A DNA stretch of 64,000 nt, taken from the sequence record NZ_CP082221.1; one strand, 5' to 3'. Below the pieces are notes generated by a model, which saw only the letters and a list, made by a program, of their open reading frames with translations, had not been told where the DNA came from and did not search any database. The position numbers were made by a program, and so were the translations under genes. Positions 31,892-60,177 of the stretch are shown here, piece after piece. The DNA is from a plasmid. Positions within the stretch are counted from its first letter, which is position 1, and every line of letters begins with the position of its first letter.

Positions 31892-31921
31892 TTGCAGCAC
31901 TTTGATGTAATTTTTTAGTAT
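31892..31921 (+). promoter_or_regulatory. tra-operon promoter with conserved box TTGCAGCACTTTGATG ... TAGTAT
   Basis: -35-like TTGCAG, 18-bp spacer, TAGTAT. The same box occurs at 58729 and 60141. Confidence 0.5.
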
Positions 31922-31944
31922 GATAATAACATATTAATTCGTAC

Positions 31945-32571
31945 ATGATTGAAGCTATGCAAAGAGCTAAAACTTACAACATACATAACTCAATTATAAA
32001 ACTTTCAGCAATCGTATTTGGAGCTTGTGTTACATCAACAACATATGCTGTTTGTTGGGATGAAGCCGCAAGTATGTATGGTACGGATCCTATTTTATTA
32101 AAAGCAATTGGATGGAAAGAGAGTAGAGGCCATGTTGGTGCAGTTGGTTCTTTACTTAAAGATGGCAATAGAGCATTAGGACTAATGCAGATAAATACCA
32201 TTCATTTACCAGCTTTAAGAAAACAAGGAATTACTCGTAATGATTTATTCGATCCTTGTACTTCTCAAAAAATTGCTTCATGGGTTCTTGCTGATTGTTT
32301 AAAAAAATTTGGTGAAGTCTGGAGAGCAGTAGGGTGTTACTACGGAGGACCTGCTTCTAAAGCATATACGGCAATGAATCAATATTCTGCCGATGTTCGA
32401 AGATACTTTGAAGGCTATAAAAGAAAAGCGGGCTTACCAGCAGTTTATACCCCATTACAACCTCAAAGTATAAAAGCTCAGTCAGTTAATTATAACGAAG
32501 ATATTCCAAATTATTCTTCAGTGAATCAAACAATTAAGAAAACTTCAAATTTCCAAATAATTCGATTCTAA
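31945..32571 (+). CDS. lytic transglycosylase (Orf169/VirB1-like)
   Basis: SLT motifs (WKESRG...GLMQIN). First gene of the T4SS operon. Confidence 0.75.
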   Translation: MIEAMQRAKTYNIHNSIIKLSAIVFGACVTSTTYAVCWDEAASMYGTDPILLKAIGWKESRGHVGAVGSLLKDGNRALGLMQINTIHLPALRKQGITRNDLFDPCTSQKIASWVLADCLKKFGEVWRAVGCYYGGPASKAYTAMNQYSADVRRYFEGYKRKAGLPAVYTPLQPQSIKAQSVNYNEDIPNYSSVNQTIKKTSNFQIIRF

Positions 32572-32587
32572 CCACACGGAGTATGAA

Positions 32588-32824
32588 ATGAATAGATTTT
32601 TTTTGCTTCTACTATGTTGCGGATCCGCAACCTTAGCAGTAGCAAAAGAACAAAAAAATGAAACAAAACAGCAGAGTATGAATGAACCTAACCCTATCAC
32701 CCGATATGTGAATGTTCTTCAAAAGGGTGAAGGCAGAGAATCAAAATTTGTTCTATGTGATCCAGAAAATAAAAGTTGCGTTCAACAAGAGCGCAGTGAA
32801 AAGCATTTGGCAGTAGCCAAATAA
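32588..32824 (+). CDS. small secreted protein
   Basis: GGAG SD. Signal peptide. A palindrome site lies inside the signal-peptide coding region. Confidence 0.45.
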   Translation: MNRFFLLLLCCGSATLAVAKEQKNETKQQSMNEPNPITRYVNVLQKGEGRESKFVLCDPENKSCVQQERSEKHLAVAK

Positions 32825-32874
32825 ATAACCCCATTTAAGGGGGCAAAACCTAAAACCTTAAGAGGAATAAAAAT

Positions 32875-33228
32875 ATGGAATTAGTTGTTCCAGCTCAAAC
32901 ACATCAAATTTACTTTGATATCAAAAAACTAAAACGTCCAGTAACAATCGCCTTGATGGTTGTCACAGCAATGCTTATTTGGATGACTTTATCAACCGCA
33001 GGTACTGGTACAGGTGTTGGTTCTACATTTAACACTTGGGCGACAACAGTGGAAGGCTGGATTAAAGGCCCATACGGGAAATTAGCAATTCTTGCGAGTT
33101 TATTATTCGCAATTGGTGCATTCGCTTGGACTCGTGATCTTCGCGTTATTGTAATTCCAGCAGTTGCTGCCGTTGTAGTTGGAATTATTGTGTCGTTAGT
33201 AACAGGTTCGTTTACAGCCGTTATCTAA
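32875..33228 (+). CDS. traA: F-type propilin TraA
   Basis: About 117 aa with a long leader then two hydrophobic segments. Position before traL-E-K-B. Confidence 0.55.
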   Translation: MELVVPAQTHQIYFDIKKLKRPVTIALMVVTAMLIWMTLSTAGTGTGVGSTFNTWATTVEGWIKGPYGKLAILASLLFAIGAFAWTRDLRVIVIPAVAAVVVGIIVSLVTGSFTAVI

Positions 33229-33243
33229 TAACTTTTTAGTGGG

Positions 33244-33543
33244 GTGGGTATGTCTTCAGGTGTAGAACTTTCTCATTATGTTCCAACGTACATCGATGCT
33301 AAATCAAAGTTCTTAATGTTTGATCAAGATGTTGCTTTAGCTTCATTTCTGATCTTCATTCTGGGTTTTGTTTTTGGTCATCCCTTCTTGGGATTCTTTG
33401 TGGGATTCGCAATAGCTTATTACTTCAATAAAGCTAAAGCAGGTCTACATCCTGATTATATGCTCCACCTAACTTACTGGGTGGCTAACTCACCGAAATT
33501 AAAGGAGTTGCCTGAATCAAACAATCGCCACTTTTTCGGATGA
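33244..33543 (+). CDS. traL: TraL
   Basis: About 99 aa membrane protein in the F-operon position. Confidence 0.5.
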   Translation: MGMSSGVELSHYVPTYIDAKSKFLMFDQDVALASFLIFILGFVFGHPFLGFFVGFAIAYYFNKAKAGLHPDYMLHLTYWVANSPKLKELPESNNRHFFG

Positions 33544-33547
33544 CATT

Positions 33548-34126
33548 ATGGATTCAGAAGTTGGAATAGCATCAAATGAAAGCCTTAATTTAAGAAATAG
33601 ATCACAGACTTATGTGATCTTTTCTTTAATAGGCTTACTTACTTTATCAATAATTGCAAATATTGTACTTGCACTGAGTGGCAAAACAATAATTAAACCT
33701 TCGGATAATTCAGGCCCAACGTATATCTTAGGAAGTACTTCGGCAAATAAAGAATATTATTTAGATTTTTCAAACTATGTAATTAATTATCTATTCAATG
33801 TTACACCAATAAATGTATCCAAGAACTTTGAAAAAATTCTAGGCATTACATGTGAACCATCCTTCCCACAAATTCAAAAATATTTAAGTCAATCTGAAGC
33901 ACAAATTAAACGTGAGGGCCTTACCAGTGTGTGGTCATCTTCAGGTGCTTTCACTTTTCAAGAAGCAGATAAGGCCGTAACCATTGAAGGAACAAGGAAA
34001 ACCTATTTGGCAGATCGTTTAGTCTCTGAAAAATCACAAAAGATTCAAACTAAATTTGTGATGAGTAAGGGAACGATATGTCTTTATTCATTAAATGAGG
34101 TGAAAGATGAAATTGCAACTCAGTAA
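33548..34126 (+). CDS. traE: TraE
   Basis: 192 aa with an N-terminal TM. Order matches F. Confidence 0.55.
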   Translation: MDSEVGIASNESLNLRNRSQTYVIFSLIGLLTLSIIANIVLALSGKTIIKPSDNSGPTYILGSTSANKEYYLDFSNYVINYLFNVTPINVSKNFEKILGITCEPSFPQIQKYLSQSEAQIKREGLTSVWSSSGAFTFQEADKAVTIEGTRKTYLADRLVSEKSQKIQTKFVMSKGTICLYSLNEVKDEIATQ

Positions 34127-34829
34127 AATTGCATTGTTTATATCTTCTATCTTCCTGACTACATCTACATTTGCGGCTCAACATATTACTAAAGCTGATC
34201 AAGAAACTGTTCAAGTAACTGTGTCGAATACAGAGCCAAATGTGCTTGTTGTTGATGGAAGACGAATTGTTAATTTAGTGCCATCAGATGTAACAGCTTT
34301 GGATACCTTGCCAGATAAAGAGCAAGGGACTCTCTATTTTAAAATATCTCCATATTTCCAGAATACACCTATAACTCTATTTGTTACTGATGATGAAGGA
34401 ACCCGTTACAAGCTTGTATTGCAGCCACGTAGCGTTGGGGCCGAAGAGGTTGTATTAGTTCCGCCAAAACCAGGTGCGGGCACAAGCAAACGATCTCAAT
34501 CCTATTTACAGCAAATAAAAGAATTGATGTATGTCATGGGAGATGATGCCGAAAATCCTCAAGAGACACTTGCCGTAGACGGGATATCCCGTTCGTTCGT
34601 AAAAGCAGAAATCCCTTTGTGGAAAGAGTCTAAATTTGTTTTGTTGCGTCGTTACGATACCGACGGTATGTATGGCGAAATGTATCAACTAACTAATTTA
34701 ACAAATAAAACAATGAATTTGTTAGAGCAGGAATTTTATAGAAAAGGTGTAAGTGCTGTTTCTATTCAAAATTTAACACTAAGCCCTGGCAGATCGACAT
34801 TTGTTTATGTTGTTAGAGAAAATAATTAG
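34107..34829 (+). CDS. traK: TraK (secretin-like)
   Basis: 240 aa with a signal peptide. Order matches F. Confidence 0.5.
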   Translation: MKLQLSKIALFISSIFLTTSTFAAQHITKADQETVQVTVSNTEPNVLVVDGRRIVNLVPSDVTALDTLPDKEQGTLYFKISPYFQNTPITLFVTDDEGTRYKLVLQPRSVGAEEVVLVPPKPGAGTSKRSQSYLQQIKELMYVMGDDAENPQETLAVDGISRSFVKAEIPLWKESKFVLLRRYDTDGMYGEMYQLTNLTNKTMNLLEQEFYRKGVSAVSIQNLTLSPGRSTFVYVVRENN

Positions 34830-34838
34830 GAGATATAA

Positions 34839-36155
34839 ATGAGTAACGATATCGATTTAGAAAATCCTAATGACAAACTCAAGAAAAAACAAATTAAATG
34901 GTTGGCCATATTAGGCACAATATTATTCATTATTGTTGCTATTTTCTTGTTTTCTGGAAGTCCACCAGAAGAAACGAATAAAACTCAAGCACCTGAAAAT
35001 GCGGTAAATGTGGAAAAACCGGGTGATGCTGAAGAGCAAGATAAATGGAGACAAACGGCCGCAATTGATCAAGAAGCTCAAAAAAAGCAAATTGATGATT
35101 TAACTCAAACCGTTAACTCTCAAGTTGCTCAAAATGATGCGTTAAAGTCAGAACTATCAATAATGAACGAGCGTATTAGTCAAATTGCTAATCGTTCCGA
35201 ATCAAGAGTGGTAGCACAACCAACAAATACAAATCCACCAAATCTTGGGGGAATAGCTGGTACATCTTCAGCTTATCCAAATAAACAAGGATTGCATGGA
35301 CAAAGTATTCTATCAGATCCAAATGGAACTGGTATCGATCCTCAGACAGGCGAGCGAATACCTTTACCAAATAATATAGCTCCAGTTAAAACCTTTGGCA
35401 TTATTGACATGAATAAGTCAATTGATGAACAAGGAAATACAACATCTACTTCAGTTAAAAGCCAACGACCTGAGAAAACAACATTTATCCCGGATGGGAG
35501 TTTTGTTCGTGTCGTAATGATTAATGGCGTAGATGCACCAACTGGTGGACAAGCACAGTCGGACCCAATTCCAGTTGTATTCCAAACAGTTGGGAAATTC
35601 GATATGCCAAATAATTATAAAATGAACATCAAAGGATGTCGTTTTGTAGGAGCCGCTTGGGGTGAATTATCGAGTGAACGTGTTAAAGCAACAATTCAAA
35701 GTGGTAACTGCATTATTAATGGTCAAACAGTACCAATTCAAATTAAAGGTCAAGTCGTTGGAGAAGACGGCAAAACTGGTATTCGTGGCCGTGTAGTAAG
35801 TAAACAAGGTCAAATTCTTGCTAAAGCTGCATTAGCATCCGCAATGGAGGCTATAGGTGGACTGTACGGTAGTACAGTTGGTACAGCAAGCCAATCGGCG
35901 CTAGGTACTGTTAGAACGATTTCAGGAAGTGAACTGAAGCAAGCCGCAGTAGGTGGTGCGATTTCAGGTGGAGCAGAAAAACTTTCTGATTTCTATATGC
36001 AACGGGCAAATGACTTATTTCCTGTTATTGAAGTTAGTGCAGGGCGAACTTTAGAGATTGTTGTTCAACAAGGTGGCACAGTAGCGAATCAATTTTTGAT
36101 AACTAAAAGTGCAACTCCAATGAATCAACAAAAACGCATTTTAATGGATGACTAA
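34839..36155 (+). CDS. traB: TraB (VirB10-like)
   Basis: 438 aa with an N-terminal TM, a Pro/Gln-rich linker and a C-terminal beta domain. Confidence 0.55.
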   Translation: MSNDIDLENPNDKLKKKQIKWLAILGTILFIIVAIFLFSGSPPEETNKTQAPENAVNVEKPGDAEEQDKWRQTAAIDQEAQKKQIDDLTQTVNSQVAQNDALKSELSIMNERISQIANRSESRVVAQPTNTNPPNLGGIAGTSSAYPNKQGLHGQSILSDPNGTGIDPQTGERIPLPNNIAPVKTFGIIDMNKSIDEQGNTTSTSVKSQRPEKTTFIPDGSFVRVVMINGVDAPTGGQAQSDPIPVVFQTVGKFDMPNNYKMNIKGCRFVGAAWGELSSERVKATIQSGNCIINGQTVPIQIKGQVVGEDGKTGIRGRVVSKQGQILAKAALASAMEAIGGLYGSTVGTASQSALGTVRTISGSELKQAAVGGAISGGAEKLSDFYMQRANDLFPVIEVSAGRTLEIVVQQGGTVANQFLITKSATPMNQQKRILMDD

Positions 36156-36879
36156 TATGAAAAAATTTTTATTAACTTTTGCCGTAGCAATTAGTTCCTA
36201 TTCAATAGCATATGCAGATGTAGCAGAAGATATTAAGTCTAATATCCAAAAAAACTATCCGGCAACTACTGTTACTCAAGTGAATAAAACTCCTTTAACC
36301 GGCATATATGAAGTCGTAATGGGTAGAAATGTGGCATATACCGATAAAGATGGTAGATACTTCATTTTTGGAAATTTGTTTGATATGAAAACACAAACAG
36401 ATTTAACAACGACTCCAACAAGTTCAAACAAAGTTGAAGTTGGTTTCCCGAATGCTGATCGTTTAAAAGATGCAATTAAAACAGTTAAAGGCAATGGGAA
36501 AAGAAAGCTCGTAGTATTTAGCGATCCTGATTGCCCATATTGCCAACAATTAGAACGTAATTTGCAATCGATTGATAATGTAACGATTTATACATTCCTT
36601 TATCCGTTAGAGAGTATTCACCCAACTGCTAAAACAACAGCAGTATCAATTTGGTGTTCTAAGAATCCTGGTAAAGCATTTCAAGATTACATGATTGAAA
36701 ATATTAAGCCTTCATCCAAAAATTGCGCTCACCCAATAGATCGTAATATTGAATTTGCATCAAGTATGAATATTCAAGGTACACCTTCATTAATATTTGA
36801 AGACGGTTCAATGGTGCCTGGAGCAGTGGGTGTTTCTGAACTAGAACGACTTCTCAATTCATCTCAGAAATCAAAATAA
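36148..36879 (+). CDS. DsbC-like thiol:disulfide interchange protein
   Basis: Signal peptide plus a CPYC thioredoxin motif. Also found in SXT/IncH-type MPF-F operons. Confidence 0.65.
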   Translation: MTNMKKFLLTFAVAISSYSIAYADVAEDIKSNIQKNYPATTVTQVNKTPLTGIYEVVMGRNVAYTDKDGRYFIFGNLFDMKTQTDLTTTPTSSNKVEVGFPNADRLKDAIKTVKGNGKRKLVVFSDPDCPYCQQLERNLQSIDNVTIYTFLYPLESIHPTAKTTAVSIWCSKNPGKAFQDYMIENIKPSSKNCAHPIDRNIEFASSMNIQGTPSLIFEDGSMVPGAVGVSELERLLNSSQKSK

Positions 36880-36921
36880 AGATAGCTAAAGATAGTGAGC
36901 CTCACGGCTTCAGGAGAGTCA

Positions 36922-37182
36922 ATGAAATATTTAATTATTTGTCCATTCATTCTTTTACTTTCAGGATGCAGTGCTCTAGCAACGAGCCCTTATCAAGAAA
37001 AGTGTTTAACAGTCAATAACTCAAAAAATGTTAATCAAGTAATTTCTAAGCTTGAGGTACATCTTCGTCCACCTGTTAAGACAACTAAGAAGCCGAATGA
37101 AGAAACTAAATTCAATGAATCAATTTTGGCTTTCCAAAATGAAAAAGCCGTTGATTCACATACAGCATTGGAGAATTTATAA
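36922..37182 (+). CDS. small lipoprotein
   Basis: Motif B GAGCCTCACGGCTTCAGGAG upstream. LLSGC lipobox. Confidence 0.45.
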   Translation: MKYLIICPFILLLSGCSALATSPYQEKCLTVNNSKNVNQVISKLEVHLRPPVKTTKKPNEETKFNESILAFQNEKAVDSHTALENL

Positions 37183-37827
37183 ATGAAAAGAAAAGGTATT
37201 TTACTTTGCTTGGCAATCAATCTAAGTGGATGTGCAGCATTTAACGGAGGGTTCGACGGTTTAAATGGTCAAAGCTCATTTTCATGCAAAGCGCCAGATG
37301 GAATTTTGTGTGACTCAATGTCAGGTGTAATGGCGAATTTGAATGCAAACAATTTGCCGTCACAGCAGGTTAAACATGGCAATAGTAAAGAAGTAATTGC
37401 AAATACATATATGCAGCGTACACGTGCGACTAAAGATAATGCAATGCCAGTAGCTCCATACGCAGATGAACCATTACTACGCCAACCGAAAACTCTCAGA
37501 ATTTGGGTAGCTCCGTGGGAATCTTCGGATAGAACTTTATTCGATCAACAATATTTCTATCTAGTAATCGACAATTGGAAGTGGATGATTGAACACAATT
37601 CTCGACGTCTACAAGATGCATACGCACCAATTGGAGCCCCAATTTCAAACTATTCAAGTCCAGCCATTACAGTTGCGGATCCGCAATCTACTAAAACAGG
37701 TTCAGATGGTCCTATACCAGTAAATGCTTCAGTTAATAGCCAGCCAAATAGTAAAGAAATTTTGAATGGAATAAATACTGAAATAAAAGACTTGAATGTC
37801 GATATCTCTAAGTTTACTAGACAGTGA
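37183..37827 (+). CDS. traV: TraV lipoprotein
   Basis: NLSGC lipobox with Cys residues. Position before traC. Confidence 0.5.
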   Translation: MKRKGILLCLAINLSGCAAFNGGFDGLNGQSSFSCKAPDGILCDSMSGVMANLNANNLPSQQVKHGNSKEVIANTYMQRTRATKDNAMPVAPYADEPLLRQPKTLRIWVAPWESSDRTLFDQQYFYLVIDNWKWMIEHNSRRLQDAYAPIGAPISNYSSPAITVADPQSTKTGSDGPIPVNASVNSQPNSKEILNGINTEIKDLNVDISKFTRQ

Positions 37828-37836
37828 GATTAACTT

Positions 37837-40563
37837 ATGACTGGAAATAACAAACTAATCAATTTTAGAGCCATGCTCGCAAACTGGTTTAAGGTCCACG
37901 TATTAGGTGATGATCCGACAGGTAAAAAATTCTCAACTGTAGATTTAACGAATAAGATTCTTGAAAGCTACGGCATGTATCAGATATTTAAATACAACAT
38001 GTTTAATGTGAAAAGAAGTCTTTATTATAATGATGGCCCTTCCGTAAGCTTTGCTCTAGAAATCATACCGCAGACAGGATCAAATGAGGACTTCGTTTCT
38101 CGCATAGTATCTATTATTTCAAGTTTCCCTGCGGAAACAGGTATTCAGATATTAAACTTCGGTAATACAATTTTTGAAGATGATCTTCAAGAGTACTTGG
38201 ATTTACGTGTGGCGGAATATCAGAATGGTAAAGTGTCTGATTTCGCAATAGAATTTGCAAAGAATCGAATCAAACATATCCAGTCTCGTAAAGGACGGCC
38301 ACAGTTCGGAAGAGACTCATATTACGTTATTAAAAAACCAAAAATTATTCTATCAGTTACACGTTCGGGTAGTTATAAAGACCCACAACTAATTAAGCAA
38401 ATGGAAGAGTTGTTGCATCAGACAAGTGCTCAACTACAACAAGCTAAATTACCTAATATTGTTTTAACACCAATGTTACTGCTTAAAATAATTAAGCCAA
38501 TGCTTGACCCTGAGAGTTTATTTAGAACCGTTCCACCAGAACATGAATTCCAAGTTTCTCGCTCATACTACAGTGAAGATTATAATCGTCTAGAATCAAT
38601 AAAAAGTCAGTTAACACCACGTGGTCATTCAGCAACAGTTGGTGTGTCTGAAATAGTATTTGGTCAACCTATAATTGATAAAACTAAGGGAACTAATAGA
38701 TCAGTAAGAGTCTATGATTCTGAATGGATTGAAGAAGATGACGATGAAGATCTAGAAGAAGACAATCGAATTGCATTTCGTGGTTTTGGAGTTATGAGGT
38801 ATCCAAAATTCAAACATCTTTATGAAATGGGAAATGTAATTGGCGATTTTTTTGAAAATTCCCTTCAGTATCCATGCCCTTACATAATTTCGATGGGTAT
38901 TCATATCTTAGATAAAACATCTTCTGAAACCAAAGCAAGAATAAAGCAAGCTCGTTCAACACAGAATGCTGAAAGTAAAATGGCAAAATGGCAGCCTGAG
39001 TATGCTGAAATTGCTAGAGATTGGAATGCGATCACATATCACCTACATAAAGGTGGAGGGATGTGCGAGCTCTATCATACAATCGGGATATTCGCTCCAA
39101 GATCACAACTAGATAGTTATTCTGCAAACGTTGACAATTTATGGAAGTCAAACGGCTTTAGCGTAATGCCGTTATCTTGCTTACAACTGCCACTTCTTTA
39201 TTCATCAATGCCTATGATTTTGACAAAAAAGGCAAGAGATGATTTGAAGAAATTAAAGCTGATTACGACTAAAACAACTATTAATGCCGTAGATATGATG
39301 CCAATTTTGTCAGAATGGCAAGGTTTCGGTAAACCGGTAATTATGGTATTTGGCCGCAGAGGAACACCTTGTTTTTTTGATTTATTTTCAAATAAACAGG
39401 GGAACTATAATTTTTATATTTGTGGTACGTCAGGCGCTGGTAAATCTGTTTTCTCTCTTGAAATTTTGGCAGCTTACAAAAGCTTGGGCTTCAAAATATA
39501 TATTATTGACGTAGGACGCTCATTTAAAAACTTCGTAGCGCTCGGTAAAGGACAAGCAATTGATTTCGCAAAGCGCGAAAAGATTTGTATGAATCCTTTC
39601 ACATGGCTAGAGGTAATTGAAGATGAGGAACTTTCGGAAAAAGAAGGAACCTTAAATACATTTGCCCAAGAGATGAAAATGCTCTTGCCTATGTATGCAA
39701 AAATGGCTTCACCATCCAAACCATTAGACGATTACGATAAAGCTCTCCTTTCAAGAGCTATTAGAGAGACATGGTTAAAATTCCGCAATAACAATGGCGT
39801 AGACCAAATCTCTGACTTCTTGAAAGAAATTAGAGATCAAAACGGAAATATTGATGCACGAGGTTGGGCTCTTGGTACTCAGTTAGAAAATTTCAAAACA
39901 AACGGGATGTATGGAAGTTACTTTAATGGTAAAGCCAACATCGATATGAATAACGAGATGATATATCTCGAACTGGAAGAACTAAAAGACTCACCTGAAT
40001 TAAAAACGGTTGTGCTTTTCGGTGTTATGAACCGAATCATGCGAGATATGTATTTATCGCGATCTCAAGGGAAAATCGTGTTTGTAGATGAAGCATGGCA
40101 ACTACTTGATGATACAGAAGAAACAGCAGCTTTTATTGAAGAAGGTTATCGTAGAGCACGTAAATACTTTGGTTCATTTGGCATGGGTACTCAAGGTATT
40201 GATGACGCATTTGCGAATGATGCTGCTAGAGCTGCATATAATTCTTCAGACTGGAAATTCTTCTTACGCCAAGATGAACAAAGCTTTGAAAAGTTACTTC
40301 AAGAGAAAAAAGCGAACTTTTCTGAAGCTGTCATTAAACAAATTAAGTCAATTGAAAGTATCCACGGTTGGTATTCAGAAATTATGGTTACTTCACCAAA
40401 CGGTCAGCACATCGTAAGACATGTTGCGGATCCGTTTTCTTTAGCTATGGCATCAACAAACAAAGACGACTACAACTTCATTGAAGAATGCACGAATAAA
40501 GGCATGAGTATGACAGAAGCAACATACGCTTTAATGCGTAAAAAAGAGGCTGAAGAAGTATGA
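37837..40563 (+). CDS. traC: TraC (VirB4-family ATPase)
   Basis: 908 aa. Walker A GTSGAGKS, and Walker B around FVDEAW. Confidence 0.9.
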   Translation: MTGNNKLINFRAMLANWFKVHVLGDDPTGKKFSTVDLTNKILESYGMYQIFKYNMFNVKRSLYYNDGPSVSFALEIIPQTGSNEDFVSRIVSIISSFPAETGIQILNFGNTIFEDDLQEYLDLRVAEYQNGKVSDFAIEFAKNRIKHIQSRKGRPQFGRDSYYVIKKPKIILSVTRSGSYKDPQLIKQMEELLHQTSAQLQQAKLPNIVLTPMLLLKIIKPMLDPESLFRTVPPEHEFQVSRSYYSEDYNRLESIKSQLTPRGHSATVGVSEIVFGQPIIDKTKGTNRSVRVYDSEWIEEDDDEDLEEDNRIAFRGFGVMRYPKFKHLYEMGNVIGDFFENSLQYPCPYIISMGIHILDKTSSETKARIKQARSTQNAESKMAKWQPEYAEIARDWNAITYHLHKGGGMCELYHTIGIFAPRSQLDSYSANVDNLWKSNGFSVMPLSCLQLPLLYSSMPMILTKKARDDLKKLKLITTKTTINAVDMMPILSEWQGFGKPVIMVFGRRGTPCFFDLFSNKQGNYNFYICGTSGAGKSVFSLEILAAYKSLGFKIYIIDVGRSFKNFVALGKGQAIDFAKREKICMNPFTWLEVIEDEELSEKEGTLNTFAQEMKMLLPMYAKMASPSKPLDDYDKALLSRAIRETWLKFRNNNGVDQISDFLKEIRDQNGNIDARGWALGTQLENFKTNGMYGSYFNGKANIDMNNEMIYLELEELKDSPELKTVVLFGVMNRIMRDMYLSRSQGKIVFVDEAWQLLDDTEETAAFIEEGYRRARKYFGSFGMGTQGIDDAFANDAARAAYNSSDWKFFLRQDEQSFEKLLQEKKANFSEAVIKQIKSIESIHGWYSEIMVTSPNGQHIVRHVADPFSLAMASTNKDDYNFIEECTNKGMSMTEATYALMRKKEAEEV

Positions 40564-40955
40564 AACTTTCAACTATGCAAAAAATGACTCAAGGTTTAGT
40601 TTTAACAATCATCGTAATAGTTATTGCGGGAGCTATGGATTATTACAATGATATGAAACGTCCAAAGATAGCTACGATCGATATTCTGACACTGGTAAAA
40701 GAACATGAGAAAAAGCTAACAGACTTGTTATATCAAGGCGTTAAAAATCTTGATTCAGCAAATGTTGATTTAGCTCAACAATCAAAAATAGCAGATATCG
40801 AAAATCAAAAATTTACTAAGCAACTTAATAGTGCAGTTCAAAAAATCAGTGATGAATGCAAATGTATTTTGGTTAATAAAGCAGCGCTTTTAAGTGATAC
40901 TAATCGTGTAAAAGATTACACACAACAGGTTAGAGAAACAATCTATCAAAAATAA
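40560..40955 (+). CDS. TrbI-like small membrane protein
   Basis: 131 aa with an N-terminal TM, downstream of traC as in F. Confidence 0.35.
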   Translation: MKLSTMQKMTQGLVLTIIVIVIAGAMDYYNDMKRPKIATIDILTLVKEHEKKLTDLLYQGVKNLDSANVDLAQQSKIADIENQKFTKQLNSAVQKISDECKCILVNKAALLSDTNRVKDYTQQVRETIYQK

Positions 40956-41002
40956 TTAGACAGATTTTTTGATTAAGGAGCCTGACGGCTTAGGGTGTAT
41001 TC

Positions 41003-41503
41003 ATGAATAATGAAGTTAAAAGGTTTAAGGTTGTAAACGTCTTACTAGTGACATTTGTTTTGATGTTGATTGTCAGTGTAGGGCTAATGTTATGCCAAAA
41101 ATGGTTTATCTATACGGTCAATCACACAACAAGCTTGAGTGGGAAAGTATATGTAATTAAAAAAGGTGAGCCTGTACAAAAGGGTGATTTAGTTGGTTTT
41201 TTATGGCAAGGCCAGATCAAATATCCTAAAGACGTTATTTTTGTAAAAATTGTATCAGGTGTTGAAGGTGATCGTATCGTTGTTAAAGATCGAGACGTCT
41301 TTATAAATGATAAATACATTGGTAGAGCAAAAAAACAAAGTGCAGATGGAAAGCTTCAGCTCGAAGTTATCTCATCACAAGTAATTCCTAAAAATGAAAT
41401 ATTTGTAAGCACTCCTCATAAAGACTCGCTTGATAGTCGTTACGCAAAGGTCGGAACAATTAACAAGCAATATATTTTGGGGAAAGCTTATGAAATTTTC
41501 TAA
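41003..41503 (+). CDS. signal-peptidase-like TraF/TrhF (S26 family)
   Basis: Motif-B leader. LepB-like segments (GDLVGF..., GVEGDRIVVKDRDVFINDKYIG). Confidence 0.5.
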   Translation: MNNEVKRFKVVNVLLVTFVLMLIVSVGLMLCQKWFIYTVNHTTSLSGKVYVIKKGEPVQKGDLVGFLWQGQIKYPKDVIFVKIVSGVEGDRIVVKDRDVFINDKYIGRAKKQSADGKLQLEVISSQVIPKNEIFVSTPHKDSLDSRYAKVGTINKQYILGKAYEIF

Positions 41504-43168: not shown

Positions 43169-43182
43169 AAGGAGTAACTAGA

Positions 43183-46749: not shown

Positions 46750-46783
46750 ACTTAATTAGAGCCGAAGGGCTTATGGTGTCTCT

Positions 46784-47113: not shown

Positions 47114-47146
47114 TAATAAAGGAGCCTCACGGCTTAAGGTGATGTT

Positions 47147-48574: not shown

Positions 48575-48589
48575 GTAGGGATAATAATT

Positions 48590-51500: not shown

Positions 51501-51592
51501 AAAAGGTTATGCCAAAAAATGAAACCCATATAAACAGTAATGGTGCTTCATTTGGCCAGTGGAACAGAAGAGATATTGACCCAAAAAAGTAA
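48590..51592 (+). CDS. traG: TraG (N-terminal polytopic membrane domain plus large periplasmic C-terminus)
   Basis: 1000 aa, last gene of the operon. Contains a GKGGKGGKAG 9-bp tandem repeat at 50618-50650. Confidence 0.65.
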   Translation: MDFTIETYWNVESTYLILNAVASLMGSSDWVGALKFIFLTAIMASLFVFALDRDLGKFVRNFGWAYFIVVIIMAPVSSVAVVDKLKQEPPKIVGNVPWLLAMGAFTTNFTTGWITKEYETLTSVPSSLSLTGTGDMGFGQALIRNTNKMSITSPSLRADIMQYIKECSIYDMQDGVLNAEDLMQKTDSWNKLFSNTNPARFVTLGILKGAPETVTCVEGATRLKQQVNDGIAAAMRYYGKNAFIDFNEATALSMYTNAVGTSYSWILGANQSASDAVKQSMFNNIMKDANTELPALINDQTRIQELMASAGAAAASEQMKGAAAVLSKLAFEVIPIVRNWLEVVLYATFPIAVMLIVLKPSTAVNILSGYFTSFLTLGLFPLIFALINHASMLYLRRKAEALDFSEGIPFTKMGVLDSTVVDIQTVIGLFVILTIPLAAWIARGFYGDIAAIGNQIVGRFTSAGSSIGSSMAMGNMTLGETNIDSSSVNNTSMNKYDSNLSQSRGLTTLTNEYGTSHTLTPSGVMNTQKLEDTTAQSLHTGQSISRSNENRYGQSTDSVYGVGATYDKATGSTNTNSYNRSETYGLTDERGVSNSSLTGVGNSKGYTTGTNQNESDTTHTGVSLSKTDYTAMSAGANGNLGLGGGAGSGGGGSEEKRVAGSPTNPGNVQPVSKGEGGKGGKGGKAGVGIQAGVGVYAQGQKGINWSGTQDEGQNRTSAVDEYRGVSTGVNYRNDLEHNKHESQNETHTSSNGHERSASLYENNSYAENRNAQLSSRNEEARSTSFASSHSMESGYNFAQDPKFKKEVAQHFGLDQIQFSNLSPQQQTQYMQDYLANETARIKETPSTYADGKPIEFNLPSDFRSNKGNVGSRSGISADFAKNSSNIGTGIKQVSVNTGPSSAISGVKNSLDDIEGNMSVIQQNQHNKTEHTKDRNFELEEKVGEWKRKDIKDTIDFDPIGHAKEAFTELKEKVMPKNETHINSNGASFGQWNRRDIDPKK

Positions 51593-51657
51593 AGGACCCC
51601 CAACTCTATAGGCAGTATGAAAAAACAGGAGGATTTCTAATTCAAGCTGCTAGGGAA

Positions 51658-52182
51658 GTGGGGGTGGACCCTCAGAAAGTTATTTTAATTTCGGGTTTAG
51701 AGAGCTCGTTCAAAGAAGATGCTGTATCAGCAACTAAAGCAACCGGCTTAGGCCAATTTGTAGCTGGAACGTTTGCTGAACGAATTGCTAAATCGAGACA
51801 TCCTGAACTGCGAGCACTAAGAGGTTTATCTAGAGAAGAGCTACTTGAAAAAAGGAAGGATCCAAGAATTGGAGCACTAGCTTTAGCTGAACATATTAAA
51901 GATGCAGAAGACCGTGTTAAATCTGCTTTTAAAGCCAATGGTATAAGAGATAACGTAACACTTGCAGATATTTATACAGTCCATAACATTGGTAATCCAA
52001 GCATGGCTGTAGCAGCAAGACAAGGTAAAATGGCTTTAGCCGGTGTATCTGTGAAGGCTATGAGAAACAATGCACAACTTTACGAAAATGGAATTAATAC
52101 GACGGCAAAACAGTATATGGAAACGGTCGATCGAAAGTTTGTTGTTATCGATGCTAAGTTAAGGAACGGAAAGAGAAATTAA
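51658..52182 (+). CDS. second lytic-transglycosylase-domain protein
   Basis: ESSF...TGLGQF motif. Confidence 0.5.
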   Translation: MGVDPQKVILISGLESSFKEDAVSATKATGLGQFVAGTFAERIAKSRHPELRALRGLSREELLEKRKDPRIGALALAEHIKDAEDRVKSAFKANGIRDNVTLADIYTVHNIGNPSMAVAARQGKMALAGVSVKAMRNNAQLYENGINTTAKQYMETVDRKFVVIDAKLRNGKRN

Positions 52183-54963: not shown

Positions 54964-54988
54964 ACTTTTTCCAATTAGCTACGATGGT

Positions 54989-56594: not shown

Positions 56595-56675
56595 ATAAAA
56601 CAAAAGGTTATGACATTTAATTACTTTTATCCAGGAGCTGCTGAAGGAGAATGGCCATGGAATATTTTGCAACTT

Positions 56676-57179: not shown

Positions 57180-57216
57180 TTATTAACCCGAAAAAATGAA
57201 GGACCGTGTTTAGAGG

Positions 57217-57882: not shown

Positions 57883-57923
57883 TATTGACTCCTGAAGCCG
57901 TGAGGCTCAAAAATGTGTTTTGG

Positions 57924-58223
57924 TTATTTGCTTGAAGTAAAAAATGGAGGCGCAAAAGGAGCATATTTGTATGATGTACTAGGATCGCACGGAACAAAAT
58001 ACACTTCTCTTTCTAGAAATTTATGAGCTCTTAAAGCTGGATCCTTAACAATTAATCCATAAATAACAAGTAAAATAATTAAAGGAATTATATTGTTAAT
58101 CATGTAGCTAAGTGTGGAGCCCATAATTGCAAATAAAAGAAATAACAAAAATTTCATAAACTTATTTTCAATCATTTTATTCTCCAATAGGTACAACACA
58201 TACATGAAGTACCGTGTTGGCAA
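57924..58223 (-). CDS. small membrane protein
   Basis: Hydrophobic ORF. Confidence 0.4.
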   Translation of the reverse strand: MPTRYFMYVLYLLENKMIENKFMKFLLFLLFAIMGSTLSYMINNIIPLIILLVIYGLIVKDPALRAHKFLEREVYFVPCDPSTSYKYAPFAPPFFTSSK

Positions 58224-58242
58224 AGTCTAAACAATTATCAAA

Positions 58243-58476
58243 TTATTGTTGCTCGATGATAATTGATCTACCTGTTTGTGTTCCAAAGTAACCTACTACT
58301 TTCCATCCCAAATCATAAATTTGTTGGATAGTTAAACGATCTTTTTGGCTAATGGCAGGGCACATATATGTTGAGTTATCACGGGAATAACATTCGCCTC
58401 CTTTTTTTTGAGCAAAAGCAGCATTTGAAGCAGCAAGTGTTAAACCCAAAGTTAAAGATAAAAAGATTTTTTTCAT
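58243..58476 (-). CDS. small secreted protein (signal peptide)
   Basis: Signal peptide AASNAAFA. AAGGAAACC SD. Confidence 0.45.
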   Translation of the reverse strand: MKKIFLSLTLGLTLAASNAAFAQKKGGECYSRDNSTYMCPAISQKDRLTIQQIYDLGWKVVGYFGTQTGRSIIIEQQ

Positions 58477-58728
58477 AATGGTTTCCTTGTAATGAGTGGG
58501 ATTTTTTAAATCAAGTGTATGTTTAGATCATATGATAACCATATACAAAAAAAAAGTTAAGTTTAAAAATTCAACATTTTTAGTGAATGATTTATTTAAA
58601 GATGAATACGCAGAGTGATGCACTAGAATAAGGTTACTAAGGCTAGAGTTGAAAAATGTAATTTGTGATAAAAAATAAATTTAAAATTGTGGATAACTAA
58701 AATATTTTGTGCTATAAAATACGAAAAG

Positions 58729-58760
58729 TTGTAGCACTTTGATGATTTTTTTTGATTAGA
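58729..58760 (+). promoter_or_regulatory. rep promoter with conserved box TTGTAGCACTTTGATG
   Basis: Second copy of the box. A DnaA-box TGTGGATAA sits at 58691-58699. A 10-bp stem hairpin lies at 58786-58811. Confidence 0.45.
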
Positions 58761-58946
58761 AAAATGCTATGCTTAAAAAGACGAAAGACTGAACGCGCCA
58801 ACGTTCAGTCTCTCTGGTTGTTGTCAAGATCCTTCGCAGGGCATACTTAACAACGGTTATTTGTATAACGTAGATTCATAGTACATCTACTTCATATCTT
58901 TTGCAACCCTTTTATATGCGAAAGATCATTATAATAACCAAGAAAA

Positions 58947-60140
58947 GTGTGTCCAAATTGTACAATGGGCATACTTATGACTGTAAACTTTGTTAATTTA
59001 AATTCTAAAAAAGACTTTATAATCAATAGATTATATGAAAACCTACCAAAAAAACCTTACTGTACCAGTGACTTCTTCGGATTAAAGATTCGTGACAAGA
59101 AACAAGCTATACGTCACTCACATATACAAATTAATCATCCGAATTTTAAAAGATATATAGTTATTGATGCTGATTATCCAGGCGCAGCAACAGCTTGGCG
59201 GTATGATTTTGATGACAATATTCCAGTACCAAATTTAATTGTAGTTAATCCAGAAAATACTCATTGCCATTTTTACTATGAACTTGAAGCTCCAGTAAGT
59301 TTTACTGAAAGTTCCAGCAAGAGAGCTCAAGAATTTTATAATTCAGTTTCTAAAAAGCTCACTGAAGTATTAAAAGGTGACAGCAAGTACGTGGGACTAA
59401 TAGCAAAGAATCCTGCACATGAAAAATGGATTGTAGAAGTACCACGATTAGAAAAGTATTCATTGCATGAACTTGTTGAACATTTAGAACTTAAGCCACA
59501 TGAATACAGAAATATAAATTCAGAAAAACCCGGTATAGAGAAATTTGTAATTAACGGCCGTAATGATCATCTATTTAACGAAATACGGCATCAAGCATAT
59601 ATCGACATTAGAAGTTATAGAAGTAAAACATTTGTTGAGTGGTTTGATCATGTAAAAAGCTTATTAATAAATGCAAATAAGAATTTTAGCGTTCCGCTAC
59701 CATATTCAGAAGTTTGTGCTACAGCAAAATCAATCGCAAAATATTGTTGGAAAAAAGATAGCTACTGCTTTCAAGAGTTTTGTGAAAGGCAACATATTAA
59801 AGCAAAGAAAGGTGGACGTGCAAAATCCGATAAATATGTTGAAATGAGGCGCACGGCTGCGCGTTTATTGCGTTCTGGTAAAACTAAAACCTATATATCA
59901 GAATTACTTCAAGTATCGTACAGAAGCGTTCTCCGTTGGCTTCAAGGCATAAAAGTACAAGCTGCAATAATGCATTTATCAGAATTAAAAAAGTTATGTG
60001 ACAATGCCCAAAATCAGATATTAGCCTGCTTCATTGCTTCTTTAATCGTTATTATTTTAGATGAGCACATTTATGATTTTAATGAATCTGAAGAATTAAA
60101 AATTACCATCAAATTCAAATTAAAAGTTCCAATTCAATAA
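58947..60140 (+). CDS. rep: plasmid replication initiator (replicase/primase-type, not Rep_3)
   Basis: Similarity from memory to the Replicase family (IAKNPAHEKW; HCHFYYEL). The exact start Met is uncertain. Confidence 0.5.
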   Translation: MCPNCTMGILMTVNFVNLNSKKDFIINRLYENLPKKPYCTSDFFGLKIRDKKQAIRHSHIQINHPNFKRYIVIDADYPGAATAWRYDFDDNIPVPNLIVVNPENTHCHFYYELEAPVSFTESSSKRAQEFYNSVSKKLTEVLKGDSKYVGLIAKNPAHEKWIVEVPRLEKYSLHELVEHLELKPHEYRNINSEKPGIEKFVINGRNDHLFNEIRHQAYIDIRSYRSKTFVEWFDHVKSLLINANKNFSVPLPYSEVCATAKSIAKYCWKKDSYCFQEFCERQHIKAKKGGRAKSDKYVEMRRTAARLLRSGKTKTYISELLQVSYRSVLRWLQGIKVQAAIMHLSELKKLCDNAQNQILACFIASLIVIILDEHIYDFNESEELKITIKFKLKVPIQ

Positions 60141-60177
60141 TTGCAGCACTTTGATTGATTTTTTTTAGTATAGTATG
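60141..60177 (+). promoter_or_regulatory. promoter with conserved box TTGCAGCACTTTGATTG ... TAGTAT
   Basis: Third copy of the box. Confidence 0.45.

What the first reader, a model, noticed from the sequence alone, without database searches (positions are those of the whole stretch)
31892..60177. Shared promoter/operator box TTG(C/T)AGCACTTTGAT-T-run-TAGTAT upstream of the tra operon, the rep gene and the zeta-like operon
Three copies were found:
- 31892-31921 (ahead of the lytic transglycosylase, traA...traG);
- 58729-58760 (ahead of rep);
- 60141-60177 (ahead of 60212/60438/61536).

Each has a -35-like TTGCAG, an invariant GCACTTTGAT spacer segment, a T-run, and a TAGTAT -10.

Identical spacer sequence in three otherwise unrelated promoters suggests a common regulator binding site that couples replication, conjugative-pilus synthesis and the zeta-like module. 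The divergently transcribed Zn-ribbon protein (31379-31714) is a candidate regulator for the tra copy.
Basis: seen in the sequence. Interest (0 to 1): 0.6.

Follow-up and report, generated by a model that had tools for sequence, protein, structure and literature searches.

The report
Shared operator box on Acinetobacter plasmid
A 15-base sequence sits in front of the replication, DNA-transfer, pilus and maintenance operons of a major Acinetobacter baumannii resistance plasmid and stays unchanged in diverged relatives, so it is most likely the docking site of one plasmid repressor that has not been described.

Summary
The window is a RepAci6-type conjugative A. baumannii plasmid. TTGYAGCACTTTGAT occurs four times exactly, not three; about none is expected by chance. 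The missed copy (20291-20305, minus strand) lies in the oriT/relaxosome promoter region. A fifth variant (18768-18786) overlaps the -35 of a leading-region promoter.

TAGTAT follows the box at the tra and zeta copies only, not at rep.

In five or six diverged lineages the box is kept at the same places while the flanks drift. The centre triplet varies (CTT, AAG, ACT, AAC, ATA). The constrained core is therefore a pseudo-palindrome, A(T/G)CA-N3-TGAT, with a TTG 5' flank.

Its position relative to the best promoter differs by site: about +3 to +19 at rep, on the -35 at site E, in the -35/spacer at tra, and over an extended -10 at the relaxosome gene. That fits a repressor operator better than one promoter type.

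Best candidate binder (inferred): an orphan HicB-like ribbon-helix-helix protein (63337-63717). It is the last gene of the box-D operon, and its DNA-reading strand is invariant across lineages.

No support was found for the Zn-ribbon protein. No binding or transcription-start (TSS) data exist. No description was found in the searched literature.

The parts
20291..20305 (-).
   Evidence: Exact match; sequence read. Conserved in the A. pittii lineage and in the relative, as TTGTATCACTTTGAT.
31892..31906 (+). Box B: TTGCAGCACTTTGAT, 53 nt (box start to ATG) before the ATG of the first tra (Mpf) gene (SLT, 31945). TAGTAT lies at 31916-31921.
   Evidence: The relative has ATGTATCAAAGTGAT in the same register with the centre triplet inverted.
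58729..58743 (+). Box C: TTGTAGCACTTTGAT in the rep leader, 8 nt downstream of the conserved extended -10.
   Evidence: TGTAGCACTTTGAT is invariant in 5 lineages.
60141..60155 (+). Box D: TTGCAGCACTTTGAT, starting 1 nt after the rep stop codon, ahead of the five-gene zeta-like operon. TAGTAT lies at 60166-60171 and 60171-60176.
   Evidence: Box plus TGATTGATTT and TAGTATG are conserved in 5 lineages.
18768..18786 (+). Box E (variant): TTGTTTCAAAGTGATTGAA, abutting the -35 of TTGAAT(18782-18787)-16-TATAAT(18804-18809), the promoter of ORF 18874-19206.
   Evidence: PWM score 20.2 bits. The relative has TTGTATCAAACTGATTGAA at the syntenic place.
58710..58720 (+). Extended -10 TGcTATAAAAT, the likely rep promoter.
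   Evidence: TG.TATAAAATA is invariant across 5 lineages while the adjacent bases vary.
20298..20306 (+). TGcTACAAT, an extended -10 formed by the reverse complement of box A. Likely promoter of the relaxosome operon (RBS GAGGAG 20337-20342, ATG 20353).
   Evidence: TTTAAA-17-TACAAT with TG. Inference only: no TSS data.
20353..26274 (+). Dtr operon: TrwA-like protein with an RHH-like N-terminus as read by eye (20353-20823), coupling protein (20828-22987), MOBF TrwC-type relaxase (22999-26274).
   Evidence: Pfam TrwB_AAD_bind and TrwC. The RHH reading of the TrwA-like protein is by eye; Pfam and PDB sequence searches gave nothing.
31945..52182 (+). F-type Mpf (tra) operon, from the SLT gene to traG and a second SLT gene.
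   Evidence: Annotation of an identical plasmid; Pfam SLT.
58977..60140 (+). rep: ColE2-type primase-like initiator (RepAci6).
   Evidence: Pfam Replicase + PriCT_1; tblastn family picture.
60212..63751 (+). Box-D operon: 79-aa ORF, zeta-like (60438-61520), DUF1173 (61536-62801), 174-aa ORF (62767-63291), HicB-like RHH (63337-63717), terminator 63716-63751.
   Evidence: ORFs overlap or lie at most 45 nt apart. The only strong terminator is at the end. Pfam Zeta_toxin.
63337..63717 (+). Candidate box-binding protein: HicB-fold N-domain plus C-terminal ribbon-helix-helix. No HicA partner.
   Evidence: Family profile against PDB HicB 6g1n, E=2e-7. Pfam HicB_lk_antitox in 4 of 6 family members. 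AF2 pLDDT 80.8, and the Foldseek top hits are all HicB. The strand ERVT(L/M)T(L/I)P is invariant in 5 lineages.
19446..19775 (-). 109-aa ORF on the far side of oriT, in the direction box A points. In the relative it has its own box just before the ATG.
   Evidence: relative 64259-64271, GTATCAACTTGAT.

Best explanation
**Claim.** The box is the operator of one sequence-specific, plasmid-encoded repressor. It forms a small global regulon of the RepAci6-type plasmid backbone.

**The site.** The consensus is TTGTA(T/G)CA-N3-TGAT(T/G). The constrained core is the pseudo-palindrome A(T/G)CA-N3-TGAT, usually followed by a T-run.

**Where the five copies sit in this plasmid.**
- On the extended -10 of the relaxosome (TrwA-like / coupling protein / relaxase) operon in oriT.
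- In the -35/spacer of the F-type pilus (tra) operon.
- Just downstream of the rep promoter.
- At the head of the zeta-like maintenance operon.
- On the -35 of a leading-region gene.

**How it would work (inferred).** Occupancy would block RNA polymerase binding or escape. Replication initiator supply, both transfer operons and the maintenance operon would then be turned down together once the repressor has accumulated, and would be transiently high after entry into a new cell.

**Most likely repressor (inferred, not shown).** The orphan HicB-like ribbon-helix-helix protein at 63337-63717. It is the last gene of the operon headed by box D, which would close a negative feedback loop.

**Shown:** the sites, their non-random occurrence, their conservation, and their positions relative to conserved promoter elements.

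**Inferred:** repression, and the identity of the protein.
For: 1. **Non-random.** Four exact 15-mers, plus one match at two mismatches, against 0.44 expected. PWM scores show a gap: five sites at 20-28 bits, the rest at or below 14.7.

2. **Placement.** All five lie in intergenic regions directly ahead of backbone operons.

3. **Phylogenetic footprint.** A relative whose backbone proteins are mostly 30-85% identical keeps the box at all syntenic places and has two more copies. Four further Rep lineages (64-69% identity) keep boxes C and D. An A. pittii lineage keeps box A. In the alignments the box is an invariant island between variable bases.

4. **Constraint on half-sites, not on promoter hexamers.** The centre triplet is CTT, AAG (an exact inversion at the tra site of the relative), ACT, AAC or ATA, while ATCA/TGAT stay. 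The TTG flank is conserved even where it cannot be a -35, namely at rep and at site E.

5. **Variable position relative to the best-conserved promoter elements.** About +3 to +19 at rep, abutting the -35 at E, in the -35/spacer at tra, and over an extended -10 at A. This is expected for a repressor and not for an activator or a single promoter architecture.

6. **Not chromosomal as far as tested.** No copy with a T-run was found in any Acinetobacter species representative genome. The box is absent from more distant Rep relatives that have a different backbone.

7. **Candidate protein.** The HicB + RHH fold is supported by profile, Pfam and structure. The RHH strand and helix-2 N-cap are invariant across lineages. 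By contrast, the corresponding N-terminal segment of the TrwA-like protein, read by eye as an RHH strand, differs between lineages. The gene closes the box-D operon. A distant lineage whose HicB-like protein is only 31% identical has AGCAAAATGAT between a TATAAT and the ATG of the same operon.
Against: - There are no binding, TSS or expression data of any kind.
- The site is asymmetric (5' TTGTA, 3' T/G plus a T-run). At tra and zeta it can also be read as -35 plus spacer before a conserved TAGTAT, so a promoter-module reading is not excluded.
- In this plasmid the left half-site is AGCA, not ATCA.
- The HicB-like assignment rests on operon position and conservation only.
- The same operon also encodes a 174-aa protein with a possible C-terminal HTH and a 79-aa protein. 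Neither could be excluded.
- The box-like site in the distant lineage L028 is a single match to a pattern that occurs about twice by chance in 15 kb (my own estimate from base composition, not a tool result).
- More distant MPF_F plasmids have a related motif in the tra promoter (TTCACTTTGACAGC, TTTCACNGTGA). At least one of them has a different small RHH gene next to it. The conserved binder could therefore be a transfer-module protein instead.
Confidence: 0.6

Rival explanations
1. One reading: the box is one reused sigma-70 promoter cassette (-35 TTGYAG, fixed spacer, T-run, -10). It would drive transcription rightwards at B, C and D and leftwards at A. Any regulator would bind the spacer.
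For: A TAnnnT hexamer lies 17-19 nt after the TTG hexamer at A (TAAATT), B (TAGTAT) and D (TAGTAT), and at A', B' and C' of the relative. TAGTATG is conserved after B and D in all lineages. Every site is co-oriented with a downstream gene.
Against: There is no such hexamer at rep in this plasmid. There, the conserved promoter element is an extended -10 upstream of the box. At E and at the extra site of the relative, a near-consensus promoter places the box at -40 or +1. The distance from box to TAGTAT is 9, 10/15 or 17 nt depending on site and lineage. TTG is TAG, ATG or GTG at conserved sites. The hexamers match the consensus at 3/6 and 4/6 positions and are not called by the scan. Orientation is informative at only two sites.
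Confidence: 0.2
2. The box is a binding site for a host protein, either a nucleoid-associated protein such as IHF or a chromosomal transcription factor. The plasmid would use it at its key promoters and at oriT.
For: The reverse complement, ATCAAAGTGCTRCAA preceded by an A-tract, resembles the IHF consensus WATCAANNNNTTR. IHF sites are usual in oriT regions (general knowledge of R388 and F). DnaA boxes sit next to boxes A and C.
Against: The TTR position reads CTR or ATA at every site, and W is C at three of the four exact copies in this window. The A-tract is 2-4 nt from the core, not about 8. At the tra site of the relative the core is inverted while the T-run stays, which an asymmetric IHF site would not tolerate. 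A 14-15-nt identity across lineages is far more than such proteins require. No copy was found in Acinetobacter species representative genomes with the stringent pattern.
Confidence: 0.1
3. The box is a replication or priming element: a binding or priming site of the ColE2-type Rep primase, with copy D as the vegetative origin. The other copies would be secondary priming sites used after conjugative entry.
For: Rep is a ColE2-type primase-initiator whose origin lies at or just after the 3' end of rep (PMC5304414). Box D starts 1 nt after the rep stop codon.
Against: A separate ColE2-type origin block, TGTGACAATGCCCAAAATCAGATATTAGCC (59997-60026), lies inside the 3' end of rep. It is invariant, or differs at one base, in six lineages, and it matches the CAAATCAGATAATAGCC found downstream of rep in small Acinetobacter ColE2-type plasmids. 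The box has no similarity to it, and those small plasmids lack the box. Copy A is on the opposite strand, which does not fit priming on one transferred strand.
Confidence: 0.05

Closest known systems
KorA/KorB (and TrbA) global regulon of IncP-1 plasmids RK2/RP4
   Same: Short operators are repeated at the promoters of replication, transfer and stable-inheritance operons. The repressors are encoded in a controlled operon. A ParB-family protein with a KorB domain is present here too, together with a dispersed 16-bp palindrome.
   Different: The operator sequence is unrelated (KorA GTTTAGCTAAAC and KorB TTTAGCSGCTAAA, from memory). No KorA homologue was detected. The candidate binder here is a HicB-like RHH protein. 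The host is Acinetobacter, the Rep is ColE2-type and the pilus is F-type.
Omega repressor of inc18 plasmids (pSM19035 omega-epsilon-zeta)
   Same: There, a small RHH protein encoded in the zeta-toxin operon co-represses copy-number control, partition and its own operon. It binds repeats of the heptad WATCACW (from memory). Here the box in related lineages contains TATCACT (window copies: TAGCACT), heads a zeta-like operon, and that operon encodes an RHH protein.
   Different: There is a single heptad-like unit plus a degenerate inverted one overlapping it by 1 nt, not arrays of 7-10 contiguous heptads. The RHH is fused to a HicB domain and is the last gene of the operon, not the first. No sequence relationship to omega was found: the Pfam scan of the protein gave no significant hit of any kind. 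Transfer operons are also included in the regulon.
Transcriptional network of IncW plasmid R388 (StbA, ArdK, KorA, TrwA repeats)
   Same: The Dtr module is the same kind (TrwA-like, TrwB-like, TrwC-type MOBF relaxase). oriT is flanked by divergent promoters. Short repeats are shared by several backbone promoters. The StbA repeat TTGCATCAT (from memory) superficially resembles TTGCAGCAC.
   Different: In R388 the sites are arrays of direct repeats, not single pseudo-palindromes. No StbA, ArdK or KorA homologue was recognised here. The Mpf is F-type, not the P-type (VirB-like) Mpf of R388.
HicB antitoxins with a C-terminal RHH (B. pseudomallei 6G1N/6G26, Y. pestis HicB3 4P7D, S. pneumoniae 5YRZ)
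   Same: The candidate protein has the same two-domain fold over its full length. HicB proteins repress their own promoter through the RHH. The 28-bp promoter fragment bound by S. pneumoniae HicB contains GTATCACT (PMC6159526), the same 8 nt as the box of related lineages. This match is post hoc and is only a lead.
   Different: There is no HicA toxin gene next to it. It is embedded in a zeta-like/DUF1173 operon. It would control five operons rather than one.

Membership tests
Plasmid global-repressor regulon (IncP KorA/KorB type, R388 type, inc18 omega type) | The same short operator is present at the promoters of several functionally different backbone operons (replication, transfer, maintenance). 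| tested here: met
   Five sites, ahead of Dtr/oriT, Mpf, rep, the zeta-like operon and a leading-region gene. They are conserved in relatives.
Plasmid global-repressor regulon (IncP KorA/KorB type, R388 type, inc18 omega type) | The regulator is encoded by the plasmid, within an operon carrying the operator (autoregulation). | tested here: inconclusive
   An RHH protein (63337-63717) and a possible HTH protein (62767-63291) are encoded in the box-D operon. Which protein binds, if either does, is not shown.
Plasmid global-repressor regulon (IncP KorA/KorB type, R388 type, inc18 omega type) | Protein binding to the operator and repression of the promoters have been demonstrated. | not testable with these tools
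   Needs EMSA or footprinting, reporter fusions or ChIP.
   TTGCAG matches at 3/6 and TAGTAT at 4/6. No copy is called by the scan. There is no -10-like hexamer after copy C. The spacer is 18-19 nt at B and D.
inc18 omega operator | At least two contiguous heptads WATCACW. | tested here: not met
   There is one exact heptad (TATCACT) in related lineages and TAGCACT in the window. The second unit (TTTGATT) is degenerate and overlaps the first by 1 nt.
IHF binding site | WATCAANNNNTTR with an A-tract about 8 nt upstream. | tested here: not met
   The reverse complement reads ATCAAAGTGCTR or ATCAAAGTGATA. The first T of TTR is missing at all sites, W is wrong at three of the four exact copies in this window, and the A-tract is 2-4 nt away.
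ColE2-type replication origin | Similarity to the conserved ColE2 ori block (…ATCAGATAAYAGC…) at or after the 3' end of rep. | tested here: not met
   The ori-like block is a different sequence at 59997-60026. The box is absent from small ColE2-type Acinetobacter plasmids.
HicB antitoxin family (for the candidate protein 63337-63717) | N-terminal HicB fold plus a C-terminal RHH or HTH DNA-binding domain. | tested here: met
   Profile against PDB HicB, E=2e-7 over residues 8-122. Pfam HicB_lk_antitox in 4 of 6 family members, though not in the window protein itself. AF2 pLDDT 80.8. The first seven Foldseek hits, and twelve of the first fifteen, are HicB or HicAB chains.
HicB antitoxin family (for the candidate protein 63337-63717) | An adjacent HicA toxin gene. 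| tested here: not met
   The neighbours have no HicA_toxin hit. A true HicA-HicB pair was seen only for the phage homologue P0027.

The most novel reading that the evidence does not exclude
An antitoxin-derived protein (an orphan HicB fold fused to a ribbon-helix-helix) has been recruited as the master repressor of the RepAci6 plasmid family. Through one 16-bp operator it would couple the ColE2-type replication initiator, both conjugation operons and the zeta-like maintenance operon.

It may act together with a KorB-domain ParB that has 16 dispersed GTTGCGGATCCGCAAC sites. That would be an IncP-like two-repressor network, assembled independently from different parts in the main carbapenem-resistance plasmids of A. 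baumannii.
Probability: 0.3. Interest if true: 0.7.

Novelty: new member of a known kind. Interest (0 to 1): 0.5.

Why it matters
RepAci6-type plasmids are the main conjugative carriers of blaOXA-23 and aphA6 in A. baumannii (PMC3956371, PMC4356202, PMC6861865). Nothing was found in the searchable literature on how their replication and transfer are controlled.

One conserved operator at all core operons gives a concrete handle:
- It predicts a single repressor whose loss should raise copy number and transfer frequency together.
- It explains how cost could be kept low in established hosts.
- It offers a defined DNA-protein pair to test, or to target in order to destabilise the plasmid.

Conceptually it would be one more example of a plasmid global regulon, so it adds to a known principle rather than overturning anything.

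Tried and rejected
- **Box as ColE2 origin.** Rejected, because a separate invariant ori-like block exists at 59997-60026.
- **Box as IHF site or omega heptad array.** The consensus tests failed (see the membership tests).
- **ParB as binder.** Unlikely, because a different perfect palindrome, GTTGCGGATCCGCAAC, is dispersed 16 times and is the obvious ParB/KorB target.
- **TrwA-like protein as binder.** Disfavoured. Its N-terminal strand, which looks RHH-like by eye, differs between lineages that share the box. Pfam and PDB sequence searches gave nothing for it.
- **Small ORFs divergent from rep (58243-58476, 57924-58223).** These are signal-peptide or membrane proteins, not regulators.
- **Highly conserved ORF 17789-18298.** It has a J-domain-like HPD motif by eye and is annotated as a DnaJ chaperone in one record. 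Not a regulator.
- **174-aa ORF.** Profile against PDB and Pfam gave nothing significant. The single-sequence AF2 model had pLDDT 51 and is unusable.
- **BLASTP between the RHH segments of the HicB-like protein and of the L045 RHH.** No alignment.
- **Genome-contig scan with box + T-run.** Ten scattered single hits in unrelated taxa and none in Acinetobacter. This says nothing about distant variants.
- **The search for homologous proteins for the HicB-like and TrwA-like proteins.** Almost only near-identical sequences were returned.
- **Rfam on the rep region.** No hit.
- **Literature searches for the sequence and for regulation of RepAci6 plasmids.** Nothing relevant.

Full report
**What the window is**

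The last 6 kb of the window is 100% identical to more than 200 conjugative Acinetobacter baumannii plasmids of 64-90 kb. These are typed MOBF / MPF_F, rep_cluster_734. The initiator has Replicase and PriCT_1 domains, that is, a ColE2-type primase-initiator (RepAci6 type).

The window runs from parA/parB (98-2131) through a leading region and oriT. Next comes a TrwA-like / coupling protein / TrwC-relaxase operon (20353-26274), then an F-type tra operon (31945-52182), rep (58977-60140) and a zeta-like operon.

**Check of the observation**

A search for TTGYAGCACTTTGAT finds four exact copies, not three. It also finds one 2-mismatch match inside traN, which I take as chance. The expectation is 0.44, and no shuffle out of 100 reaches five matches. 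The rest of the plasmid has none.

- The missed copy A (20291-20305, minus strand) lies in the 577-bp gap between ORF 19446-19775(-) and the TrwA-like gene (ATG 20353).
- This gap also holds a nic-like sequence, GCACCGTTAGGTGC GTGGTGTGTGAG (19926-19951, minus strand). It is conserved in relatives and resembles the R388 and F nick regions as I recall them.
- An alignment of the four copies shows identity only over AA-TTGYAGCACTTTGAT and the T-run.
- TAGTAT follows copies B and D only. After copy C comes GATTTTTTTTGATTAGA.
- The consensus promoter scan calls none of the copies.

**Related plasmids**

A syntenic relative is NZ_CP018144 (77.5 kb, OXA-23). Its backbone proteins are mostly 30-85% identical to those of the window. 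It carries the box at all four places:
- TTGTAGCACTTTGAT before rep;
- TAGTATCACTTTGAT overlapping the rep stop codon;
- TTGTATCACTTTGAT in oriT;
- ATGTATCAAAGTGAT before the tra operon.

The tra copy is in the same register as in the window, but its centre triplet is exactly inverted.

With the generalised pattern GTA[GT]CA-N3-TGAT the relative has six sites. The two extra ones are before the orthologue of ORF 18874 and just before the ATG of the orthologue of ORF 19775(-).

The first of these led to a fifth site in the window, TTGTTTCAAAGTGATTGAA (18768-18786). A weight matrix built from 14 sites separates the sites clearly. In the window there are five sites at 20-28 bits, with the next at 14.7. 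In the relative there are six at 18-29 bits, with the next at 13.3. Null sequences usually reach 11-15 bits, and once reached 18.7. The matrix was built from these same sites, so only the gap is informative, not the scores.

Further lineages:
- Four Rep lineages from public assemblies (64-69% identity) keep boxes C and D. One has GTATCAATATGAT at D.
- An A. pittii plasmid keeps box A while the neighbouring bases differ.
- Rep relatives at 44-46% identity, with a different backbone, have no box.

In five-lineage alignments the box is an invariant island.

**What is constrained**

Across 14 non-redundant sites the half-sites ATCA (AGCA in the window) and TGAT, the 5' TTG(T/C)A and a 3' T/G are kept. 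The centre is CTT, AAG, ACT, AAC or ATA.

Read one base further in, the site is TCAC-N-(G/T)TGA or its complement. In the GC-rich distant relatives this becomes a perfect 9-bp palindrome (see "More distant plasmids" below). This pattern is what a dimeric DNA-binding protein imposes, not what RNA polymerase imposes.

**Position relative to promoters**

- **rep.** The five-lineage alignment shows four invariant blocks:
  - an A/T-rich stretch ending in a perfect DnaA box (58688-58696);
  - an extended -10, TGnTATAAAAT (58710-58720);
  - the box;
  - the hairpin that ends a probable antisense RNA.
  
  The box therefore covers about +3 to +19 of the rep transcript.
- **Site E.** The last T of the box is the first T of TTGAAT, in a TTGAAT-16-TATAAT promoter with a TG extension.
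- **Site A.** The reverse complement of the box gives TGcTACAAT (20298-20306), 47 nt before the ATG of the TrwA-like gene and 31 nt before its GAGGAG.
- **tra.** TAGTATGATA is conserved 9 nt after the box in both lineages, which places the box in the -35/spacer.
- **zeta operon.** TAGTATG is conserved, but it lies 15 nt (window) or 17 nt (others) after the box.

One fixed promoter architecture does not fit these data. A repressor that occludes differently built promoters does. All promoter assignments here are inferences from sequence and conservation. There are no TSS data.

**Rival readings tested**

- **ColE2-type origin.** Such origins lie at or just after the end of rep (PMC5304414), and box D starts 1 nt after the rep stop codon. 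However, small Acinetobacter ColE2-type plasmids have CAAATCAGATAATAGCC downstream of rep and no box. The window has ATCAGATATTAGC at 60013-60025 inside rep. The 30-nt block around it is invariant, or differs at one base, in six lineages. That block, not the box, is the likely origin.
- **IHF and omega-heptad consensus.** Neither is met (see the membership tests).
- **Host factor.** A stringent scan of one genome per species found only ten scattered single hits in unrelated taxa and none in Acinetobacter. This argues weakly against a host regulon.

**Who binds**

The operon headed by box D comprises a 79-aa ORF, a zeta-like gene, a DUF1173 gene, a 174-aa ORF and a 126-aa ORF. The genes are tightly packed, and the operon ends at a strong terminator (63716-63751).

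The 126-aa protein has no Pfam hit on its own, but several lines place it in the HicB family:
- An exhaustive HMMER search found a very small family.
- The family profile matches B. pseudomallei HicB over its full length (E=2e-7).
- Four of six family members hit Pfam HicB_lk_antitox.
- An AlphaFold model (pLDDT 80.8) finds HicB antitoxins as its first seven Foldseek matches and as twelve of the first fifteen.

Its C-terminal segment, ERVT(L/M)T(L/I)PK..I..GIDA....NRSA.FTQ, has the ribbon-helix-helix signature and is invariant in five lineages. The rest of the protein is about 50% identical. No HicA gene is adjacent.

The TrwA-like protein also looks like an RHH by eye, but its putative strand differs between lineages (KKVSIGGKV versus ELVPMGTRV). 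Database searches gave nothing for it.

The 174-aa protein has a conserved C-terminal stretch, ELTS..IA..L….LRRML.H.R, that may be an HTH. Profile searches and a single-sequence model were uninformative.

A distant plasmid lineage (L028) keeps the order rep / zeta / DUF1173 / 169-aa / HicB-like (31% identity). It has AGCAAAATGAT between a TATAAT and the ATG of that operon, and none at rep. This is weak support for autoregulation of this operon being the ancestral role of the box.

The 28-bp promoter fragment bound by S. pneumoniae HicB contains GTATCACT (PMC6159526). This is a post hoc match and only a lead.

**More distant plasmids**

A metagenome scan with the first tra gene found 36 relatives.
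- Three AT-rich ones (61-68% identity) have TTCACTTTGACAGC-N-AAAGTGATAAT as the tra promoter: TTGACA-17-GATAAT flanked by inverted TCACTTT. One contig has two copies.
- Several GC-rich ones have TTTCAC(C/T)GTGA(A/C)A just upstream of a TTGAC-type -35.
- One, L045, has a small gene ending …GERVTVSLRMDP…NTYVVGLIEADLKKR directly upstream, RHH-like by eye. Two others (L047, L057) have upstream DNA that I read by eye as encoding a similar C-terminal tail. I did not inspect their ORFs.

A TCA-N3-TGA element at the tra promoter may therefore be old in this transfer-gene family, and its binder there may be a different RHH. This keeps the identity of the binder in RepAci6 plasmids open.

**Comparison with known systems, and novelty**

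Functionally the arrangement resembles three known networks:
- the IncP KorA/KorB/TrbA regulon;
- the R388 network;
- the omega regulon of inc18 plasmids, which also links an RHH repressor, copy control and a zeta toxin operon.

It is not a member of any of these by sequence. Searches of the held literature for the box sequence, and for regulation of RepAci6, pAb-G7-2, pACICU2 and p1AB5075, found no description.

I rate it a new member of a known kind: a real and conserved regulatory element with an inferred mechanism, in a clinically important plasmid family.

Noticed in passing
window 5156, 13873, 16659, 23935, 30886, 32616, 37672, 46988, 53235, 60690, 63726 (each 16 nt); L002 363, 2782, 9714, 14355, 23074: The perfect 16-bp palindrome GTTGCGGATCCGCAAC occurs 11 times in the window (6 exact) and 5 more times in the rest of the plasmid, against 0.09 expected. 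Some copies form terminator stems after genes and some lie inside genes. ParB (875-2131) has a Pfam KorB domain. These look like dispersed parS / KorB-type sites.
   Followed up: partly
window 46-64, 13241-13259, 14101-14119, 17401-17419, 18390-18408, 18820-18838 (+): A second repeated element, AATCGGATAGGCTGATTTC (hairpin GAAATC-N9-GATTTC), has six copies, all on the + strand, against 0.01 expected. Five of the six lie 13-36 nt upstream of the ATG of parA or of a leading-region ORF; the sixth (17401) sits at the listed GTG start of ORF 17397. A TATAAT-type -10 precedes the copies I examined. It is a shared 5' leader or the operator of a separate regulon.
   Followed up: partly
window 59997-60026 (+), inside the 3' end of rep: TGTGACAATGCCCAAAATCAGATATTAGCC is invariant, or differs at one base, in six lineages whose surrounding coding DNA diverges. 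It resembles the sequence downstream of rep in small ColE2-type Acinetobacter plasmids. It is the probable vegetative origin.
   Followed up: yes
window 58775-58955 (-): Probable antisense control RNA in the rep leader. The promoter is TGGACA-16-TATAAT (58955-58928) and the terminator is a 14-bp hairpin (58814-58783) followed by a T-run. The transcript folds at z = -4.6. The stem differs at several positions between lineages while the hairpin appears preserved; pairing was not counted. There is no Rfam match.
   Followed up: partly
window 19926-19951 (-): oriT nic-like sequence: hairpin GCACC-GTTA-GGTGC followed by GTGGTGTGTGAG. It is conserved in the relative and in the A. pittii lineage, and a GCGGG-N4-CCCGC hairpin lies next to it.
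   Followed up: partly
window 58688-58696 (+) and 20322-20330 (-): Perfect DnaA boxes (TGTGGATAA, the complement of TTATCCACA) lie 32 nt upstream of box C and 16 nt upstream of box A. The one at rep is invariant in five lineages. The one at oriT is kept in the A. pittii lineage but not in the relative.
   Followed up: partly
L005 1941-1959 versus window 31892-31910: At the tra promoter of the relative the 11-bp core is the exact reverse complement (ATCAAAGTGAT versus ATCACTTTGAT at the other sites of the relative; the window copy reads AGCACTTTGAT). The flanks and the downstream T-run/TAGTATGATA keep their orientation. This amounts to a 3-nt centre flip.
   Followed up: yes
L032 1075, L034 202 and 1456, L035 437; L039, L040, L047, L049 upstream of the SLT gene: More distant MPF_F plasmids from metagenomes have a related tra promoter element. 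It reads TTCACTTTGACAGC…AAAGTGATAAT in the AT-rich lineages (two copies in L034) and TTTCAC(C/T)GTGA(A/C)A in the GC-rich lineages. L045 has a small RHH-like gene (…GERVTVSL…) immediately upstream.
   Followed up: partly
window 62767-63291 (+): The 174-aa ORF in the box-D operon has a C-terminal stretch, ELTS..IA..L….LRRML.H.R, conserved even in the distant lineage L028. It looks like a helix-turn-helix. No database support was found, and the AF2 model has low confidence.
   Followed up: partly
window 17789-18298 (+): A 169-aa protein with a J-domain-like HPD motif (seen by eye; annotated 'molecular chaperone DnaJ' in one record) is 84% identical to its orthologue in the relative. It is among the most conserved backbone proteins, together with ParA, TraU and DUF1173.
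   Followed up: no
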